From Sideroxydans sp. (GTDB lineage: Bacteria > Pseudomonadota > Gammaproteobacteria > Burkholderiales > Gallionellaceae): a stretch of 64,000 bases of DNA. The notes under the pieces are model-generated. The model was not told the DNA's origin and ran no database searches. It worked only from the letters and a program-made list of their open reading frames with translations. Below are positions 635 to 15,166 of the stretch, piece by piece (the first letter of the stretch is position 1; each line of letters begins with the position of its first letter). The position numbers and the translations under genes were made by a program. The stretch covers positions 17,607 to 81,606 of the forward strand of contig DAIDAJ010000024.1 of the NCBI GenBank assembly GCA_027310665.1. The letters run 5' to 3'.

Positions 635-3214
635 ATGGCAATATTGATCATAGTGGTGCTGGTTGTGGCCTTATTGCTGGCCTTCTTCCGCTCTTCCATC
701 TGGGGATGGCTGATCGCTTTCGCCGTACTCGTGCCGCTGGTGGCGATGGTAAGCCGCATTTCCGACGGAGCCCTGCAAACGGTCTACATCGCGCTCGGCA
801 TCTTCCTCGCCGTCCTGGGTATTCCCGCATTGCGCCGCCTGCTGGTCAGCGGCTTCATACTCGGTATCTTCCGCAAAATACTGCCGCAGGTTTCACAGAC
901 CGAGCAAGAGGCGCTGGACGCCGGCACGGTGGGCTGGGACGGCGAACTGTTCAGCGGCAACCCCCACTGGAGGCAACTGCTGGACTTGCCCAAGACCGGG
1001 TTGAGCGAACGCGAGCAAGCTTTTCTCGATAACGAAGTAGAACAGCTTTGCGCGATGGTGGACGACTGGGACGTCACCCACACACGGCAGGACTTGTCGC
1101 CGGAAGCCTGGCAGTTCATCAAGGACAAGGGTTTCTTCGGCATGATCATCCCGCAGGAATACGGCGGCCTGGAATTTTCCGCCCAGGCGCAATCGGCGGT
1201 GGTGGCCAAAGTGGCCTCGCGTAGCGGCACGGCGGCGGTGACGGTGATGGTGCCCAATTCGCTGGGGCCGGCCGAATTGCTGCTGCATTACGGCACGCAG
1301 GAACAAAAGGAAAAGTACTTGCGCAACCTTGCATGCGGCAAGGAAATCCCATGCTTCGCCCTGACCGGCCCGTTCGCAGGTTCGGACGCGGGTGCGATCC
1401 CCGATTACGGCATCGTCTGTTACGGGGACTTCAACGGACACAGCAACGTGCTCGGCGTGCGCGTCACCTGGGAGAAGCGCTACATCACGCTGGCCCCGGT
1501 GGCGACGCTGCTCGGTCTGGCGTTCAAGCTTTTCGATCCGCAAAACCTGCTGGGCGCCGAAGTGTCGCGCGGCATCACGCTGGCGCTGATCCCGACGGAC
1601 ACGCCCGGAGTGAATGTGGGCCGTCGCCACTTCCCGCTCAATTCCGCTTTCCTGAACGGTCCGACCACGGGCAAGGAAGTATTCATTCCCATGGACTACA
1701 TCATCGGCGGCACCATGCGCATCGGACAGGGCTGGCGCATGCTGATGGAATGCCTCGCGGCAGGGCGATCCATCTCCCTGCCTGCCAGCGCGACGGGCGG
1801 CGTCAAACTGGCGGCGCGCACCAGCGGTGCCTATTGCCGCGTGCGCAAACAGTTCAAGGTGCCGGTGGGCAAGTTCGAAGGCGTGGAAGAGGCGTTGACC
1901 CGCATCGGCGGGAATCTTTATGTGATGGATGCGGCACGCACGATGACGGCGCAGGCGGTGGATCTGGGCGGCAAACCGTCCGTGATCTCCGCCATCGTCA
2001 AATACCATTGCACCGAGCGCGGCCGTATCGCCATCAACGATGCGATGGACGTGCACGGGGGCAAGGGGATATGCCTGGGGCCGGACAATTATCTGGGCCG
2101 CGCCTATCAGCAGACCCCGATCGGCATCACGGTGGAAGGGGCAAATATCCTCACGCGCAGCCTGATCATATTCGGGCAGGGTGCCGTGCGCTCGCATCCT
2201 TACGTGCTGAAAGAGATCCATGCCGCGCACGATGAGGACACCAAAAGAGCCGTACGCGAATTCGATGCCGCCCTGTTCGGGCATATCAGTTTCAGCCTGA
2301 GCAATGCGGTACGCAGCCTGGTCTACGGCCTGACCGGCGGGCACATCATCGGTGTGCCGACCGAGCAACCGACCAAGGGCTACTATCAGGCGCTGACGCG
2401 CTATTCAGCAGCGTTCGCTTTTGCTTCGGACGTTTCCATGCTCGTGCTGGGGGGCGGACTCAAACGCCGCGAGAAGCTGTCCGCCCGTCTCGGCGACGTA
2501 TTGAGCCAGATGTATCTCTGCTCCGCGGTGCTGAAACGCTTCGAGGACGACGGTCGTCCGGAAGAAGACCTGCCGCTGTTGCACTGGGGGATGCAGGACG
2601 GTCTGTATCGTATCCAGACTGCGCTGGACGGCGTGCTGCAGAACTTTCCCAGCCGCCTTGCCGCGCTGGTGTTGCGCGTCATGATCTTCCCGCTGGGACA
2701 ATGGCGCAGGCCGCCCAGCGACCATATTGGCCATCAGGTTGCATCCCTGTTGCTCAAGCCCGGTGCGGCGCGCGATCGCCTGACTGCGGGCATGTTCATC
2801 CCGAAGGCGCATCGTAATGCGCCTTCCCCTCTCCTCAATCCTGAAGAAACTACTAGCCATTCGACTAAGCCCGCAAGCGGGCAAGTCGCTGGTTATCTCC
2901 CGCAAGCGGGCGACGGGGCAAACGAATCGCTGCGCGACTCTCCCACTTACGACGAGAAAGATGCCGTCGGTGCGCTGGAAGCCGCGCTTGCCAGCACCCT
3001 GGTGTGTGAACCGTTGCAGGCAGTCCTGGAAAAGGCGCGCAAGGAAGGCAGGATCAAAGCGCGCGAAGAGCTGCAACAGATCTCCGAGGCGCGCGAACTA
3101 GGCTACATCGATGCCGGACAGGCGCAGCAGCTGGAACGCGATTACGCCTTGCGCCGCAAGGTCATCATGGTGGACGACTTCGCTCCGGAAACATTGAGGG
3201 CAAACCAGGGATGA
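635..3214 (+). CDS. fadE: Acyl-CoA dehydrogenase, FadE type
   Basis: N-terminal TM segment; VMVPNSLGP, CFALTGPFAGSDAGAI and ITVEGANILTR motifs; carries an in-frame repeat-derived insert near the C-terminus. Confidence 0.93.
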   Translation: MAILIIVVLVVALLLAFFRSSIWGWLIAFAVLVPLVAMVSRISDGALQTVYIALGIFLAVLGIPALRRLLVSGFILGIFRKILPQVSQTEQEALDAGTVGWDGELFSGNPHWRQLLDLPKTGLSEREQAFLDNEVEQLCAMVDDWDVTHTRQDLSPEAWQFIKDKGFFGMIIPQEYGGLEFSAQAQSAVVAKVASRSGTAAVTVMVPNSLGPAELLLHYGTQEQKEKYLRNLACGKEIPCFALTGPFAGSDAGAIPDYGIVCYGDFNGHSNVLGVRVTWEKRYITLAPVATLLGLAFKLFDPQNLLGAEVSRGITLALIPTDTPGVNVGRRHFPLNSAFLNGPTTGKEVFIPMDYIIGGTMRIGQGWRMLMECLAAGRSISLPASATGGVKLAARTSGAYCRVRKQFKVPVGKFEGVEEALTRIGGNLYVMDAARTMTAQAVDLGGKPSVISAIVKYHCTERGRIAINDAMDVHGGKGICLGPDNYLGRAYQQTPIGITVEGANILTRSLIIFGQGAVRSHPYVLKEIHAAHDEDTKRAVREFDAALFGHISFSLSNAVRSLVYGLTGGHIIGVPTEQPTKGYYQALTRYSAAFAFASDVSMLVLGGGLKRREKLSARLGDVLSQMYLCSAVLKRFEDDGRPEEDLPLLHWGMQDGLYRIQTALDGVLQNFPSRLAALVLRVMIFPLGQWRRPPSDHIGHQVASLLLKPGAARDRLTAGMFIPKAHRNAPSPLLNPEETTSHSTKPASGQVAGYLPQAGDGANESLRDSPTYDEKDAVGALEAALASTLVCEPLQAVLEKARKEGRIKAREELQQISEARELGYIDAGQAQQLERDYALRRKVIMVDDFAPETLRANQG
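2826..2924 (+). repeat. Nested palindromic elements inserted in-frame in fadE (45-nt outer element split by a 54-nt inner hairpin element)
   Basis: Outer halves 2826-2841 and 2896-2924 align with the intact element at 14139-14183 (36/45 identical by hand). Inner 2842-2895 contains CGACT..GCCCGC-AA-GCGGGC..AGTCG. Confidence 0.75.
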
Positions 3215-11327: not shown

Positions 11328-11406
11328 GTAGGTCGGGTTAGCGCAGCGTAACCCGACATTTTTCGTTGCGCTGTCGGGTTACGGCCTGCGGCCTAACCCG
11401 ACCTAC
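11328..11406. repeat. REPIN: inverted pair of GTAG-REPs (family A) upstream of RAYT
   Basis: GTAGGTCGGGTTAGCGCAGCGTAACCCGAC (11328-11357) and inverted variant 11373-11406 ending CCTAC. Confidence 0.9.
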
Positions 11407-11440
11407 AGGGATATTGGCGGTATAGAGGTTGGGGGATGTG

Positions 11441-11977
11441 ATGAGATACCGGCGTGCATTCGTTGATGGCGGCTCATTCTTCTTCACGTTGGTGACGGAG
11501 AAACGGCGACCGATATTTGCCTCGACGGAGGCGGTGGATGTGTTGCGGTCCGCATTTCGTTCCGTGCGAGCCTCCCATCCGTTTGTGCTGGATGCAATGG
11601 TGGTTTTGCCGGATCACTTGCATTGCATCTGGACGTTGCCGCCAGACGATGCAGATTTCGCCATCCGCTGGAGACTGGTTAAAACGTGGTTCACGAAACA
11701 TTGCGATCCGGCGCTACGTGTCATGCAAAACGCCAGCCAGGCGAGGCGGCGGGAGCAGACGCTGTGGCAGCATCGTTATTGGGAGCACATGCTGCGGGAC
11801 GAACAGGATTTCGAGAAACATGTGGAGTATGTTCATTACAATCCGGTGAAGCACGGATATGCGACCTCTCCGATGGCGTGGCCGCATTCCAGTTTCCGGA
11901 GGTATGTCGAGGCTGGGATATATGAGGCGGATTGGGGACGGTGGCAGATGGATTTTGATGGTGTTGGGTATGAATGA
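11441..11977 (+). mobile_element. REP-associated tyrosine transposase (RAYT / TnpA-REP, HUH Y1)
   Basis: GGSFFFTLVT, HUH motif PDHLH, WQHRYWEH, catalytic region YVHYNPVK; flanked by GTAG REPs. Confidence 0.92.
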
Positions 11978-11984
11978 GGCGGGT

Positions 11985-12014
11985 GTCGGGTTACGCTGCG
12001 CTAACCCGACCTAC
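11985..12014 (-). repeat. GTAG-REP (family A) downstream of RAYT
   Basis: GTCGGGTTACGCTGCGCTAACCCGACCTAC is the reverse complement of the 11328 REP. Confidence 0.9.
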
Positions 12015-13293: not shown

Positions 13294-13857
13294 ATGAAAA
13301 AATTATTGCTGGTTGTCTGTGGTCTGTTGCTGAGTGGAAGCCTGAACGCGATGGAAGTGGCCGGCGTGAACCTGCCGGGCAGCGCACAAGTCGGCGTGCA
13401 GCCGCTGGTGCTGAACGGCGCGGGCATCCGCACCAAGTGGTTCTTCAAGGTCTATGTCGCCGCGCTATACCTGCCGCAGAAGCAGACTTCAGGTTCGGCG
13501 ATCATCGCGGATGAGCATCCGCATCGCATGGCAATGCACATGCTGCGAGAGCTGGCGAGCAAGAAACTGTATGGCGCGTTCAGCGAGGCCATCGAGATGA
13601 ACCGGACTCCGGCCGAACTGGCCGCCATGGATGCGCAGATGAAGGAGATGAAGCAGATATTCGATGCGGTGGGCGAGGTGAAGGAAGGTGACATCGTCAC
13701 GCTGGACTATCTGCCCGGCAGCGGTACACAGGTCAGCGTGAACGGAAAGGCGTTCGGCACGATTGCCGGAGCGGAATTTAACCGTGCCCTGCTGGAAATC
13801 TGGATCGGCAACAACCCGGTGCAGGATGACCTGAAGAAAGGATTGTTGGGTGGTTGA
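13294..13857 (+). CDS. Chalcone-isomerase-like exported protein (CHI fold, putative fatty-acid binding)
   Basis: Signal peptide, LNGAGIRTKWFFKVYVAALYL and IWIGNNPVQDDLKKGLLG motifs. Confidence 0.85.
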   Translation: MKKLLLVVCGLLLSGSLNAMEVAGVNLPGSAQVGVQPLVLNGAGIRTKWFFKVYVAALYLPQKQTSGSAIIADEHPHRMAMHMLRELASKKLYGAFSEAIEMNRTPAELAAMDAQMKEMKQIFDAVGEVKEGDIVTLDYLPGSGTQVSVNGKAFGTIAGAEFNRALLEIWIGNNPVQDDLKKGLLGG

Positions 13858-15166
13858 TTCCAGTGCTCCTGACGAGGCCAGGGAGAGCTTTGATGTGGAC
13901 CATGCCTTTATCGCGCATCTGAACGGCGAATGCCTTGACTGGGCGGGCATGGATAACGAGGCGCTGCAGCGCGCGATACAGGCGCAGGGCGGCGAGTGGA
14001 GCAGCCTGGTGAAGGAGCGCTGCCCGCATGTGTTCGCCGCTGCACCGGTTTTCATCAGCGAGTTGCAGCTGCAGCAGATGCGCGCTGTCATCGCCGCTGT
14101 GGAGGAAGTGGTGAATCGGCCAGATACTCGGCCCAACACCCCTCACCCTAACCCTCTCCCGCCTGCGGGAGAGGGGACAAACGCCACTCCTGCATCGCGT
14201 GAGCATTGTCATGGAGTGTTCTACGGCTACGACTTCCATCTGAACGAGCAGGGCGCTCACCTCATCGAGATCAATACCAATGCGGGGGGGGCTTTCCTGA
14301 ACGCATTGCTGATCGGGAGTCAGCATGGCCTCTTCCTGTATGGCACGGCAGTGGCCAAGAACCGCCTGGAGCAGGTCTTCATCGACATGTTTCGCAATGA
14401 ATGGCGACTGGTTCGCGGCGATGCCGCGCTGAAAACCATCGCCATCGTGGACGAACAGCCGGAGTCCCAATATCTCTATCCGGAATTCCTGCTGATGCAG
14501 AAGATCTTCGAGCGTGAGGGTTACGCTGTGCATATCGTCGATCCCTCGGCCCTGCAGGCGCGCGAGGACGGTTTGTATTGCGGTGAACAGCGCGTCGATC
14601 TGATCTACAACCGCCTCACCGATTTCGATCTGCATCAGTTTCCGCATATTCGCGCGGCCTGGGACGATCAGCAGGTGGTGCTGACGCCGAACCCGGCGCA
14701 TTACCGGCGCTATGCGGACAAACGCAAACTGACGCAATTGTCGGACAAGGAATGGCTGCATTCGGCCGGAGTCTCGCAAGCGAGTATCGATGCGCTTATG
14801 CTAGGGGTGCCGCAGACTCGCCTGGTCCAGGCGCAAGATGCCGATCAGTGGTGGAGCGAACGCAAGCAATGGTTCTTCAAGCCGGTGAGCGGCTACGGCA
14901 GCAAGGGCGCATATCGCGGCGACAAGCTCACCAAGCGCGTGTTCGAAGAGATCATGCAGTCCGACTATGTCGCACAACGACTGGCGCTGCCGGACGAGCG
15001 CAAGGTGTGCATGGAAGGTGCCGAACCGCAATCGCTCAAATTTGACGTGCGCTGCTATGTGTATGACGGGCATATCCAGTTTGTCGCGGCGCGTCTCTAC
15101 CAGGGGCAGACTACCAACTTCCGCACACCGGGCGGCGGCTTTGCGCTGGTGCGCGAGGTAAGCTGA
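13850..15166 (+). CDS. Uncharacterised circularly permuted ATP-grasp ligase
   Basis: GYDFHL..LIEINTNAGG, DLIYNR, FFKPVSGYGSKG, YVAQ, FDVR motifs; overlaps the upstream gene by 8 nt. Start uncertain. Confidence 0.7.
   Translation: MVDSSAPDEARESFDVDHAFIAHLNGECLDWAGMDNEALQRAIQAQGGEWSSLVKERCPHVFAAAPVFISELQLQQMRAVIAAVEEVVNRPDTRPNTPHPNPLPPAGEGTNATPASREHCHGVFYGYDFHLNEQGAHLIEINTNAGGAFLNALLIGSQHGLFLYGTAVAKNRLEQVFIDMFRNEWRLVRGDAALKTIAIVDEQPESQYLYPEFLLMQKIFEREGYAVHIVDPSALQAREDGLYCGEQRVDLIYNRLTDFDLHQFPHIRAAWDDQQVVLTPNPAHYRRYADKRKLTQLSDKEWLHSAGVSQASIDALMLGVPQTRLVQAQDADQWWSERKQWFFKPVSGYGSKGAYRGDKLTKRVFEEIMQSDYVAQRLALPDERKVCMEGAEPQSLKFDVRCYVYDGHIQFVAARLYQGQTTNFRTPGGGFALVREVS
14139..14183 (+). repeat. Palindromic element inserted in-frame (encodes ..PHPNPLPPAGEGTN..)
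   Basis: CCCTCTCCCGC-CT-GCGGGAGAGGG is a perfect 11-bp inverted repeat (14152-14175); the element is 45 nt and preserves frame. Confidence 0.8.

What the first reader, a model, noticed from the sequence alone, without database searches (positions are those of the whole stretch)
2807..2950. Palindromic element inserted inside another palindromic element, in-frame, within fadE
Seen: FadE carries a low-complexity Pro/Ser-rich stretch (AHRNAPSPLLNPEETTSHSTKPASGQVAGYLPQAGDGANESLRDSPTY, about 48 aa). In DNA it is a 45-nt element similar to 14139-14183 (36/45 by hand), split by exactly 54 nt (18 codons) of a different hairpin element (CGACT-aa-GCCCGC-AA-GCGGGC-a-AGTCG). Both layers preserve frame, and the inner element lands in the left arm of the outer hairpin. 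Established: Rickettsia palindromic elements and some REPs insert into coding sequence. Inference: two mobile palindrome families, one targeting the other, generating new peptide loops in essential-looking enzymes.
Basis: partly seen in the sequence, partly recalled or inferred. Interest (0 to 1): 0.62.

Follow-up and report, generated by a model that had tools for sequence, protein, structure and literature searches.

The report
Hairpin repeat nested inside another, within fadE
The fadE gene of this Gallionellaceae bacterium carries, in frame, a 90-base palindromic repeat that was later split by a 54-base hairpin element, and that small element lands almost only inside other palindromic repeats, so it is a mobile element that uses other repeats as landing sites.

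Summary
Compared with its closest relative (97% identical protein, 811 aa), fadE (window 635-3214, 859 aa) has 144 extra in-frame bases at 2804-2947.

- **Outer element:** about 90 nt with three hairpins.
- **Inner element:** 54 nt at 2843-2896, inserted after a CT in the left arm of the outer's central hairpin, with no target duplication.
- **Allele states:** relatives show empty, outer-only and outer+inner alleles at this codon.

The inner family has about 40 copies here and occurs across Gallionellaceae.

- Its stems show compensatory changes.
- 153 of 158 copies follow YT.
- When the element is removed in silico, 74% of sites rebuild an intact member of another repeat family. The figure for random CT sites is 2%.
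- It also nests in itself, up to three deep.
- At least six copies sit in frame in real genes, including NifN-like, CusA-like and MFS genes.

I found no mobilising enzyme. The genome's Y1 transposases are flanked by other repeats, and one complete genome has copies of the element but no Y1 gene.

In-frame palindromic repeats are already known, for example in Rickettsia. The strict preference for landing in other repeats is the new part: a new variant of a known kind.

The parts
635..3214 (+). fadE (bacterial-type acyl-CoA dehydrogenase), 859 aa, intact ORF that carries the nested insert
   Evidence: ORF. Pfam finds Acyl-CoA_dh_N, _M and _1, plus ACDH_C in two stretches; the first stretch is residues 518-729 (profile positions 1-212 of 284), which runs into the first residues of the insert. 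Homologues are 804-814 aa. dN/dS is 0.034 against the closest empty allele.
2804..2842 (+). Outer element, left part: hairpin H1 (arms 2803-2812 and 2817-2826) and the C-rich left arm CCCCTCTCCTCAATCCT of hairpin H2
   Evidence: Absent from P0001 (97% identical protein) and from at least 14 same-genus orthologues. H1 is inverted repeat I6 and folds. The arm belongs to the CCTCAATCCTCTCCCGC subfamily, about 10 copies in the genome.
2841..2842 (+). CT dinucleotide immediately 5' of the inner element (its target)
   Evidence: G003 reads CAATCCT|CTTCCGC uninterrupted, while this genome reads CAATCCT[54 nt]CTCCCGC. Across 158 copies, position -2 is C in 132 and T in 24, and position -1 is T in 153.
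2843..2896 (+). Inner element, 54 nt: GAAGAAAC-TAC-TAGCCA-TT-CGACT-AA-GCCCGC-AA-GCGGGC-A-AGTCG-C-TGGTTA-T. It encodes EETTSHSTKPASGQVAGY.
   Evidence: Exact 54-nt gap against G003. About 40 copies in the genome, 1-4 differences from the nearest copy. Folds as a three-tier hairpin. Stems covary. No target-site duplication.
2897..2947 (+). Outer element, right part: the rest of H2 (CTCCCGC-AA-GCGGGCGACGGGG, right arm decayed) and a decayed H3 (CAAACGAATCGCTGCGCGACTC...)
   Evidence: Aligned to the intact three-hairpin version in G003 (L007) and in P0046. The H2+H3 module recurs at C79:73693, C58:16398 and C39:12242.
2948..2950 (+). Codon TAC (Tyr) at the right junction. The closest empty allele has TCC here.
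   Evidence: P0001 reads ...ATCCCG|TCC|GACGAG, while this genome reads ...ATCCCG|AAGGCG...CACT|TAC|GACGAG. All eight filled alleles have Tyr here.
14139..14183 (+). Second copy of the outer-type (CCCTCACCC...GGGAGAGGGG) family, uninterrupted, in frame in ORF 13850-15166 (peptide PHPNPLPPAGEG)
   Evidence: Sequence. 36/45 identity to the split fadE copy. The ORF comes and has no Pfam hit.

Best explanation
Two successive insertions of non-autonomous palindromic mobile elements hit one codon of fadE.

**Step 1 (shown).** A roughly 90-nt, three-hairpin member of the CCCTCACC...CTCCCGC-loop-GCGGGAGAGG family was inserted in frame between Pro724 and the next codon. This site lies in the C-terminal ACDH_C domain, outside the catalytic core.

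**Step 2 (shown).** A 54-nt hairpin element was then inserted 3' of a CT in the left arm of that element's central hairpin, with no target duplication. The hairpin then decayed. The whole 144 nt is read through as 48 extra residues.

**Behaviour of the inner element (shown).**
- It has no terminal inverted repeats and makes no target duplication.
- Its ends are defined: 5' G-R-W-R-N-AAC-TAC and 3' TGGTTAT.
- Its three-tier hairpin is kept by compensatory changes and holds a conserved G.T pair.
- It integrates after YT.
- It lands almost only inside other hairpin-forming repeats, in their 5' arm or loop, and inside itself.

**Mechanism (inferred, not shown).** A trans-acting, structure-dependent strand-transfer enzyme probably moves it as single-stranded or hairpin DNA. 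That enzyme would need a hairpin next to the YT it cuts. This is how E. coli TnpA-REP cleaves a CT dinucleotide in ssDNA carrying a REP hairpin with its GTAG, on either side of the hairpin and even at some distance from it (PMC3479197). I give about 0.3 to an HUH Y1-type enzyme specifically.

**Why intragenic copies survive (inferred).** Lengths of 54 and 60 nt, with three of six frames open, let copies persist when the host repeat already sits in a tolerant protein loop.
For: **Empty, outer-only and nested alleles**
- At least 14 same-genus orthologues are empty. G003 has the outer element only. This genome has outer plus a clean 54-nt insert.
- The closest relative, P0001, is 97% identical in protein and has identical flanks but an empty site.

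**Copy number and spread**
- About 40 inner copies in this genome.
- More than 118 contigs of Gallionella, Sideroxydans, Ferrigenium and Sulfuricella hold it.
- 18 of 301 genomes of the order match the pattern; multi-copy matches are mostly in this family and several single hits look like chance.

**Structure under selection**
- Middle stem: CGACT/AGTCG in 93 copies, CCACT/AGTGG in 33, TGACT/AGTCA in 3.
- Distal stem: 122 different sequences, all paired (mean MFE -8.6 against -1.6 for shuffles).
- Basal stem TAGCCA/TGGTTA, with its G.T pair, in 124 of 140 copies.

**Target**
- YT precedes 153 of 158 copies; there is no duplication.

**Landing in repeats**
- After in-silico excision, 35 of 42 sites rebuild an uninterrupted paralogue and 31 of 42 have three or more.
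- Only 14 of 600 random CT sites have three or more.
- Hosts include the a, b, c and h families and the element itself.
- Nesting reaches three deep at C9:39330-39503.

**Intragenic copies are real**
- Pfam domains span the inserts in NifN-like, MFS, AcrB/CusA-like, HemD and epimerase genes.
- In Ferrigenium the element sits in SucB-like, Nnr-like and oxidoreductase-like ORFs, named from their translations only.

**Gene still functional**
- dN/dS 0.034.

**CT and hairpin logic of a known enzyme**
- PMC3479197.
Against: **No enzyme identified**
- The genome's two RAYT genes are flanked by unrelated GTAG repeats, and a third Y1 gene by its own inverted repeats.
- No gene recurs next to the element in 118 loci.
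- G005 (complete genome, 7 copies) and G144 have no Y1_Tnp gene at all.
- IS91-type Y2 genes are absent from most carrier genomes.

**Mismatches with known ssDNA systems**
- Orientation shows no bias against GC skew (27:36), unlike IS608 or ISDra2.
- The motif next to the hairpin foot is CTAC, not GTAG.
- TnpA-REP cuts between C and T. The element fits that only if its ends are shifted by one T, and its 3' junction would then be A|T, not C|T.

**Other gaps**
- No identical copies and no observed excision, so current activity is not shown.
- Some spread could be by gene conversion between host repeats.
Confidence: 0.8

Rival explanations
1. The fadE copy of the inner element did not arrive by transposition. 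It arrived by gene conversion or ectopic recombination from another outer+inner composite, with the arms of the shared host repeat serving as homology. More generally, the inner element would spread within a host family mainly by hitch-hiking or conversion.
For: - The best match to the fadE insert is the composite in the NifN-like gene (C39:12209-12293). It is 94% identical over 85 nt and includes host-arm sequence on both sides.
- A distant FadE (P0044, 75% identical) has the inner element at the identical position of the same outer element.
- The same self-nested composite (ACTACT|GGTGAAAC...) recurs at C54, C87, C115 and C9.
Against: - Conversion cannot explain the first entry into each of five or more unrelated host families.
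- It cannot explain the constant YT junction and constant TTAT end across them.
- It cannot explain three different insertion positions within the outer-type family.
- The host arms are only about 17-25 nt and differ between copies.
Confidence: 0.2
2. The inner hairpin is mainly a functional structured RNA or DNA signal (an mRNA stabiliser, a terminator or a protein-binding site) kept by selection at each place. It is not selfish DNA.
For: - Strong compensatory covariation and an invariant basal sequence across genera.
- The conserved G.T (G.U) pair points to strand-specific folding.
- One context is conserved in 11 loci of different genomes.
Against: - No Rfam family matches, even at E up to 10.
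- Copies lie in both orientations relative to the host genes' reading direction, inside coding regions, inside other repeats and inside each other.
- Presence or absence differs between 97%-identical orthologues.
- Covariation is equally expected if a hairpin is needed for mobilisation.
Confidence: 0.1
3. The segment is an old, lineage-specific part of FadE, a low-complexity linker that was lost precisely in most relatives.
For: Eight of 121 close FadE sequences, in two deep clades, have an insert with the same end points and a shared ...ANESLRE...Y motif.
Against: - The filled alleles need 8 changes on the tree, at least 6 of them forced by well-supported branches, and they are no more clustered than shuffled labels. 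Each has an empty close relative.
- The DNA is a member of dispersed repeat families.
- Flanks are identical to the empty allele.
Confidence: 0.03
4. The insert is an assembly or binning artefact of a metagenome-assembled genome.
For: The genome is a 127-contig draft, and repeats are prone to misassembly.
Against: - The ORF is continuous and in frame.
- Independent assemblies show the same architecture: GCA_035720845 for outer+inner, G003 and P0018 for outer only.
- The element is only 54 nt, shorter than a sequencing read.
Confidence: 0.01

Closest known systems
Rickettsia palindromic elements (RPE) and intragenic REPs in general (Ogata et al. 2000, from my own knowledge; Di Nocera et al. 2013, PMC3733652)
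   Same: Short palindromic repeats sit in frame inside genes for conserved proteins and are read through as extra peptide. Di Nocera et al. note that CGTC-tagged REPs, which include RPE-4 and RPE-6, lack a dedicated transposase. Clusters of repeats encoding 43-82 aa have been reported, including in the betaproteobacterium Thauera.
   Different: The sequence, taxon (Gallionellaceae) and architecture differ. The inner element here is defined by a YT target and by landing inside other repeats, which is not a described property of RPEs.
REP/REPIN elements with RAYT (TnpA-REP) Y1 HUH enzymes (PMC3333891, PMC3479197, PMC3116915)
   Same: Both are hairpin repeats with a short conserved motif at the hairpin foot. 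The enzyme cuts at a CT dinucleotide in ssDNA carrying a REP hairpin, on either side of it. There is no target duplication, and the enzyme acts in trans from a single gene.
   Different: - The foot motif is CTAC on the 5' side, not GTAG.
- Copies are singletons or nested, not inverted doublets.
- No RAYT gene is flanked by the element.
- One carrier genome has no Y1 gene.
Small dispersed repeats SDR1-8 of heterocystous cyanobacteria (Elhai et al. 2008, Genome Res 18:1484; not held in the library, cited through the reference list of PMC3116915 and from my own knowledge)
   Same: Very small mobile repeats nest inside one another and inside conserved sequences, with no encoded enzyme.
   Different: SDRs are about 21-27 nt, cyanobacterial and unrelated in sequence. 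I could not read the paper here, so the comparison rests on memory.
Insertion sequences that target REPs: ISPpu9/10, ISPa11, ISPsy8, ISRm19/22 (Tobes and Pareja 2006, PMC1525189); IS1397 and IS621 (from my own knowledge)
   Same: Palindromic repeats serve as specific landing sites for mobile DNA.
   Different: Those are full-length, transposase-encoding elements, each specific for one REP family. Here a 54-60-nt non-coding hairpin lands in at least five families and in itself.
IS200/IS605 family and its miniature derivatives (PATEs)
   Same: Insertion 3' of a short specific sequence without duplication, no terminal inverted repeats, and hairpin-dependent end recognition.
   Different: - Those elements have two subterminal hairpins and a 4-5-nt target.
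- They show bias for the lagging-strand template, which was not seen here.
- They have a related autonomous IS, which was not found here.

Membership tests
REP/REPIN-RAYT system | Conserved GTAG tetranucleotide at the 5' foot of the hairpin | tested here: not met
   The element has AAC-TAC (CTAC) 5' of the basal stem TAGCCA. GTAG occurs only on the opposite strand, 3' of the hairpin.
REP/REPIN-RAYT system | A cognate RAYT gene flanked by copies of the repeat (REPtron) | tested here: not met
   The RAYTs at C52 and at window 11429-11977 are flanked by GTAGGGTGCGC... and GTAGGTCGGGTTAGC... repeats. No gene recurs near 118 loci. G005 has 7 copies and no Y1_Tnp gene.
REP/REPIN-RAYT system | Copies arranged as inverted doublets (REPIN/BIME) | tested here: not met
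   Copies are single units or are nested within each other.
REP/REPIN-RAYT system | Strand break at a CT dinucleotide next to the hairpin, with no target duplication | tested here: inconclusive
   YT precedes 153 of 158 copies and there is no duplication. The enzyme's C|T break (PMC3479197) fits only with a one-base shift of the ends, and the 3' junction is then A|T.
IS200/IS605-derived miniature element (PATE) | Left and right subterminal hairpins matching those of an autonomous IS with tnpA | tested here: not met
   There is one hairpin only. No long element with these ends was found in the genome or in the 118 loci.
IS200/IS605-derived miniature element (PATE) | Orientation bias relative to replication (lagging-strand template) | tested here: not met
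   27 against 36 copies relative to local GC skew. This is a rough test on draft contigs and includes a few spurious one-mismatch hits.
Classical MITE (derived from a DDE transposon) | Terminal inverted repeats and a target-site duplication | tested here: not met
   The ends GAWGRAAC and GGTTAT are not inverted repeats. The empty-versus-filled comparison shows no duplication. The right flank begins with CT in only 13 of 158 copies.
Intragenic palindromic repeats of the RPE type (a behavioural class) | A multi-copy palindromic element inserted in frame in conserved genes, absent from orthologues, with the ORF kept | tested here: met
   FadE. Five further genes have Pfam domains spanning the insert.
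Integron attC site | Complementary R'' (RYYYAAC) and R' (GTTRRRY) core sites at the two ends | tested here: not met
   Read from the sequence: AAC and GTT are present, but the rest does not fit the consensus. GTT pairs with AGC inside the basal stem, not with AAC.
Any Rfam RNA family | Covariance-model match | tested here: not met
   Nothing covers the inner element at E up to 10. The only nearby hit is a 21.8-bit match to DUF3800-VI (cut-off 35) on the outer right part, and it disappears in the larger search.

The most novel reading that the evidence does not exclude
The inner element would represent an undescribed class of bacterial mobile DNA: a 54-60-nt hairpin with no inverted ends and no target duplication, whose landing sites are other hairpin-forming repeats (after YT in their 5' arm or loop) and itself. 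It would be moved in trans by an enzyme that is neither encoded next to it nor a canonical RAYT, possibly a structure-specific nuclease or strand transferase common to these genomes. In the same reading, the fadE codon is a recurrent landing site: the outer family entered it independently six to eight times, and the outer's loop then caught further elements (the inner element twice, outer-type elements twice).
Probability: 0.3. Interest if true: 0.75.

Novelty: new variant of a known kind. Interest (0 to 1): 0.55.

Why it matters
**A fully resolved example.** It shows how selfish hairpin repeats build new peptide segments in conserved enzymes of free-living bacteria. Empty, single and nested alleles are all available in public genomes.

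**A new targeting rule.** The inner element's rule is YT inside another palindrome. This implies that palindromic repeats act as safe landing sites for one another. That would explain why such repeats pile up into mosaics without wrecking genes.

**A test case for hairpin-guided DNA insertion.** If the enzyme were found, it would be a structure-guided DNA inserter with a two-base sequence requirement. That bears on the open question of how REP-like repeats without a dedicated transposase multiply.

**A practical point for annotation.** These inserts inflate and split domain hits. Here ACDH_C is matched in two stretches. They also produce spurious low-complexity regions in proteins predicted from metagenome-assembled genomes.

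Tried and rejected
1. **Rfam match for either element.** None. A weak DUF3800-VI hit is noise.
2. **Hammerhead reading of CTGATGA...GAAAC.** Rejected: the left five bases vary and there is no helix II.
3. **Group II intron domain V likeness (AGC/GUU with a G.U pair).** No Intron_gpII hit, and 54 nt is too short.
4. **Integron attC reading.** The core sites do not fit.
5. **An autonomous partner with the same ends.** Every solo end in the genome and in 118 loci turned out to be a nested or interrupted copy.
6. **A recurrent neighbouring gene.** Clustering 2881 ORFs from 118 loci gave only orthologous contexts.
7. **Y1_Tnp genes.** Those present have their own repeats, and they are absent from G005 and G144. 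The RAYT about 1.2 kb from a copy in Ferrigenium is not flanked by it.
8. **IS91-type Y2 transposase.** One copy here, absent from most carrier genomes.
9. **Orientation against GC skew.** No bias.
10. **AlphaFold model of FadE from a 20-sequence alignment.** Mean pLDDT is 48, too poor to map the site. It only shows residues about 717-776 as coil with the lowest confidence, between two helices.
11. **Solved structures.** None reaches beyond about residue 636.
13. **Elhai 2008.** The paper could not be read.
Full report
**What is in the sequence**

The ORF at window 635-3214 (+) encodes an 859-aa bacterial-type acyl-CoA dehydrogenase (FadE). Pfam finds the three ACAD domains and the C-terminal ACDH_C domain. 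ACDH_C is matched in two stretches. The first is residues 518-729 (profile position 212 of 284), which runs into the first residues of the insert.

- The peptide AHRNAPSPLLNPEETTSHSTKPASGQVAGYLPQAGDGANESLRDSPTY is present.
- So is the hairpin CGACT-AA-GCCCGC-AA-GCGGGC-A-AGTCG.
- A 45-nt sequence is obtained by joining 2826-2842 to 2897-2924. It matches 14139-14183 at 36 of 45 positions.
- The piece between the two halves is exactly 54 nt (2843-2896).

**The empty site and the order of events**

I fetched FadE from 30 relatives and from the large protein collection.

*Empty alleles.* At least 14 same-genus orthologues read ...TAGMYI-S/P-x-DE.D.VGALE with nothing in between.

*The closest relative.* P0001 is 97% identical in protein outside the insert and 90.6% identical in DNA.
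- It reads GGCATGTTCATCCCG|TCC|GACGAGAAAGAT.
- The window reads GGCATGTTCATCCCG|AAGGCG...(144 nt)...CACT|TAC|GACGAGAAAGAT.
- So the insert is 2804-2947, 48 codons, with one codon changed at the right junction.

*The outer-only allele.* Genome G003 (locus L007) has only the outer layer, 93 nt.
- It reads CAATCCT|CTTCCGCAAGCGGGAGAGG where the window has CAATCCT[54 nt]CTCCCGCAAGCGGGCGACGG.
- This gives the three states: empty, outer, and outer+inner.
- It places the 54-nt element after a CT with no duplicated bases. One T is ambiguous.

*Fold of the outer layer.* As single-stranded DNA, the G003 outer layer forms three hairpins (z = -6.3).
- H1 is a hairpin of variable sequence.
- H2 is the 10-bp stem CCTCTTCCGC/GCGGGAGAGG.
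- H3 is GAACGAATCGC...GCGAATCGTTC.
- In the window, H2 is split in its left arm and its right arm has decayed.

The outer element is therefore about 90 nt.

**The gene is still under selection**

Against P0001, dS is 0.44 and dN is 0.015, so dN/dS is 0.034.
- The catalytic ACAD core (residues about 104-636) is what solved structures cover. The insert at 724-771 lies beyond it.
- My AlphaFold model was too poor to use (mean pLDDT 48). It only shows the insert as the lowest-confidence coil between two helices.
- A second FadE-like gene exists on contig C56, 63% identical.

**The inner element is a family with defined ends and a selected hairpin**

*Copy number and size.*
- The genome (3.19 Mb, 127 contigs) holds about 40 copies.
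- There are two size classes, 54 and 60 nt, which differ in the distal stem-loop.
- The 54-nt copies differ from their nearest neighbour by 1-4 bases and the 60-nt copies by 3-8. There are no identical pairs.

*Distribution.*
- An exact 19-nt core occurs in more than 118 contigs of Gallionella, Sideroxydans, Sideroxyarcus, Ferrigenium, Sulfuricella and a Propionivibrio MAG.
- In a sample of 301 genomes of the order, 18 match the pattern. The multi-copy matches are mostly in this family (0-35 copies; this genome has the most), and several single hits look like chance.

*Structure, over 140 distinct copies.*
- The middle stem is CGACT/AGTCG in 93, CCACT/AGTGG in 33 and TGACT/AGTCA in 3, with hardly any half-changed forms.
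- The distal stem has 122 different sequences, all hairpins (mean MFE -8.6 kcal/mol against -1.6 for shuffles).
- The basal stem TAGCCA/TGGTTA, with its G.T pair, is kept in 124 of 140.
- One variant has TAAGTA/TACTTA instead.

No Rfam family matches.

**Its target**

Among 158 copies, the base at -2 is C in 132 and T in 24, and the base at -1 is T in 153. The first base after the element is almost never T, and there is no duplication.

The striking point is where these YT sites lie. I cut each copy out in silico and joined its flanks.

| Sites tested | At least 1 uninterrupted paralogue | At least 3 |
|---|---|---|
| Inner-element sites (42) | 35 | 31 |
| Random CT sites (600) | 124 | 14 |

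The paralogues had to span the junction, and some sites had up to 73.

The hosts are unrelated palindromic families.

| Host | Insertion points |
|---|---|
| (a) outer-type family | CCCT\|CTCCC, CCCTCT\|CCC, or in the loop |
| (b) | CCGTTCGCCCTGAGCCT\|GTCGAAGGGC, and its partner ...GACAAGCT\|CAGGGCGAACGG |
| (c) CGTC-tagged | GTCATT\|CCGGCGAAGGCCGGAATCCAG, or its loop TTCCGGCCT\|GCGCCGGAA |
| (h) | CGTTACT\|GGCGAAGCCAGC |
| (i) | ...GATCTCT\|GTGGC |
| the element itself | AACTACT\|AGCC, or CGACT\|AAGC |

- At C9:39330-39503, one copy inside an (a) repeat carries two further copies.
- The site is always in the 5' arm or the loop of the host hairpin.
- In my rough sort of the (a) hosts, 25 copies were classed in the orientation that puts the asymmetric C-rich arm upstream and none in the other. 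Many of the unclassed copies look the same by eye.
- Other small repeats in turn insert into the inner element (L090, L109, L130).

**Intragenic copies are common and real**

Because the host repeats themselves sit in genes, so do inner copies.

| Gene | Position |
|---|---|
| NifN-like | C39:12237 (the same outer+inner composite as in fadE, ...PHPNP[DETTSQSTKPASGQVAGY]LPPAGEGAN...) |
| MFS transporter | C23:22759 |
| AcrB/CusA-type pump | C24:13397 |
| HemD | C58:16692 |
| NAD-dependent epimerase | C2:38356 |
| HsdR-like helicase | C75:4355 |

- Pfam domains span the insert in all five that I tested.
- In Ferrigenium straubiae KS the element sits in ORFs that, from their translations, look like the linker of dihydrolipoamide succinyltransferase, a quinone oxidoreductase and an NAD(P)HX dehydratase. 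I did not run family searches on these.
- Two reading frames are used: forward (DGTTSHSTKPASGQVAGY) and reverse (ITSDL...SRMASSSI).
- By hand translation of the consensus, three of the six frames are open.
- 148 of 158 copies have a length divisible by three.

**The fadE codon is itself a hot spot**

Of the 121 closest FadE sequences:
- 113 are empty;
- 4 have the outer element;
- 2 have outer+inner (this genome, and P0044 from Gallionella sp. GCA_035720845, with the inner element at the identical CAATCCT| position);
- 2 (P0058, P0034) have a second outer-type element nested in the loop of the first.

On a tree built without the insert columns, the eight filled alleles need eight changes. At least six of these are forced by well-supported branches. 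The filled alleles are no more clustered than shuffled labels, and each has an empty close relative.

All filled alleles share the same end points and the motif ...ANESLRE...Y. H1 differs in sequence and length between them but always pairs.

I cannot tell whether this reflects repeated site-specific entry, exchange of alleles by recombination, or frequent seamless loss.

**How it most likely works**

*Shown:*
- two sequential insertions;
- defined ends, no inverted ends and no duplication;
- a YT target;
- a hairpin under selection;
- a near-exclusive preference for other hairpin repeats.

*Inferred:* the element moves as folded single-stranded DNA, through a trans-acting enzyme that needs a hairpin beside the dinucleotide it cuts.
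- The best precedent is E. coli TnpA-REP. It cleaves a CT dinucleotide in ssDNA carrying a REP hairpin with its GTAG. The CT can lie on either side of the hairpin, even at some distance, and the enzyme can transfer strands (PMC3479197).
- An enzyme with that logic would naturally integrate into other hairpins.

*Against a canonical RAYT:*
- the foot motif is CTAC, not GTAG;
- the two RAYT genes of this genome form classical REPtrons with other repeats. One lies in the window: ORF 11429-11977, flanked by inverted GTAGGTCGGGTTAGCGCAGCGTAACCCGAC at 11328-11357 and 11985-12014;
- a third Y1 gene has its own inverted ends;
- no gene recurs beside the element;
- the complete genome G005 has seven copies and no Y1 gene;
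- there is no orientation bias against GC skew.

I therefore hold the mobility and nesting at about 0.9 and an HUH Y1 enzyme at about 0.3.

Gene conversion between host repeats may add to the spread (rival 1). It cannot account for entry into unrelated families with the same junctions.

**Comparison with what is known**

- In-frame palindromic repeats are known: the RPEs of Rickettsia, and intragenic GTAG and CGTC REPs, including clusters encoding 43-82 aa in Thauera (PMC3733652).
- That paper also notes REPs sitting inside other palindromes in Thermomicrobium roseum and Halothiobacillus neapolitanus, and that CGTC REPs lack a dedicated transposase.
- REPs as targets of full-length insertion sequences are known (PMC1525189).
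- Nesting of very small repeats is known from cyanobacterial SDRs (Elhai 2008, which I could not read).

What I did not find described is this family, its YT-in-hairpin rule across several host families and itself, and the complete allelic series at one codon.

Earlier notes of this scan record what appears to be the same 60-nt hairpin in cobQ of another Gallionella-like genome, and several repeat families inside housekeeping genes of another. These agree with my reading but are not independent evidence.

**Verdict**

This is a new variant of a known kind, of moderate interest.

Noticed in passing
window 11328-12014: A classical REPtron. A 182-aa Y1 (RAYT-type) ORF at 11429-11977 is flanked by two perfect inverted copies of GTAGGTCGGGTTAGCGCAGCGTAACCCGAC, at 11328-11357 (+) and 11985-12014 (-). 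It is unrelated to either element in fadE.
   Followed up: partly
window 13850-15166 (element at 14139-14183): A 438-aa ORF with no Pfam hit carries an uninterrupted outer-type repeat in frame (…NTPHPNPLPPAGEGTNAT…).
   Followed up: partly
L187 (P0058) and L188 (P0034), FadE of other Gallionellaceae: At the same fadE codon, the outer element carries a second outer-type element nested in the loop of its central hairpin (after CTCCCG / CTCCCGC). This gives 59-61 extra residues.
   Followed up: partly
FadE tree of 121 sequences: Filled alleles at this codon are scattered: 8 changes, at least 6 forced. Each filled allele has an empty close relative (ours/P0001, P0018/P0022, P0046/P0114). The cause is unresolved: recurrent site-specific entry, allele exchange, or seamless loss.
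   Followed up: partly
G000 C39:12209-12293: A NifN-like nitrogenase cofactor gene (Oxidored_nitro) carries the same outer+inner composite in frame as fadE. It is 94% identical over 85 nt.
   Followed up: partly
G000 C24:13397-13450, just upstream of the window on the same contig: An AcrB/CusA-type pump gene carries the inner element inside a (b)-family repeat, and a separate outer-type repeat (…ARPHPNPLPEGEGANV…) further on.
   Followed up: partly
G000 C9:39330-39503; also C120:30346-30454, C54:589, C87:15389, C115:4008: Self-nesting of the inner element up to three deep, at two recurrent internal sites (AACTACT|AGCC and CGACT|AAGC).
   Followed up: yes
L090, L109, L130, L108, L105: Other small repeats (ACCCGCAAGGGG...-type) are inserted into copies of the inner element. 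A sister family shares the GATGAAAC start but has a different hairpin (L108). One variant has a compensated basal stem, TAAGTA/TACTTA (L105).
   Followed up: no
158 copies from the loci and the genome: 148 of 158 inner copies have lengths divisible by three (54, 57 or 60 nt). This may reflect selection for frame preservation, or chance given only two main size classes.
   Followed up: no
G000 C84:12188-12517: A 242-aa Y1 transposase-like gene is bounded by its own inverted repeats (AATAGGGGAC..ACCACGGTTT / AAACCGTGGTCCCCTATT), the TIRYT type of Di Nocera et al.
   Followed up: partly
G000 C38:3387-5501: An IS91-type Y2 transposase (397-aa frame) lies beside a 307-aa ORF that looks like an integrase from the start of its translation. 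It is not linked to the hairpin element.
   Followed up: partly
L138 and ten other loci: An inner copy sits at the same place, at or before the N-terminus of an ORF that looks like an MsbA-type ABC transporter (judged from its translation only), in 11 loci of different genomes. This looks like an old, vertically inherited insertion.
   Followed up: no
G000 C56:13942-15972: A second FadE-like gene (802-aa frame, 63% identical) with an empty site.
   Followed up: no
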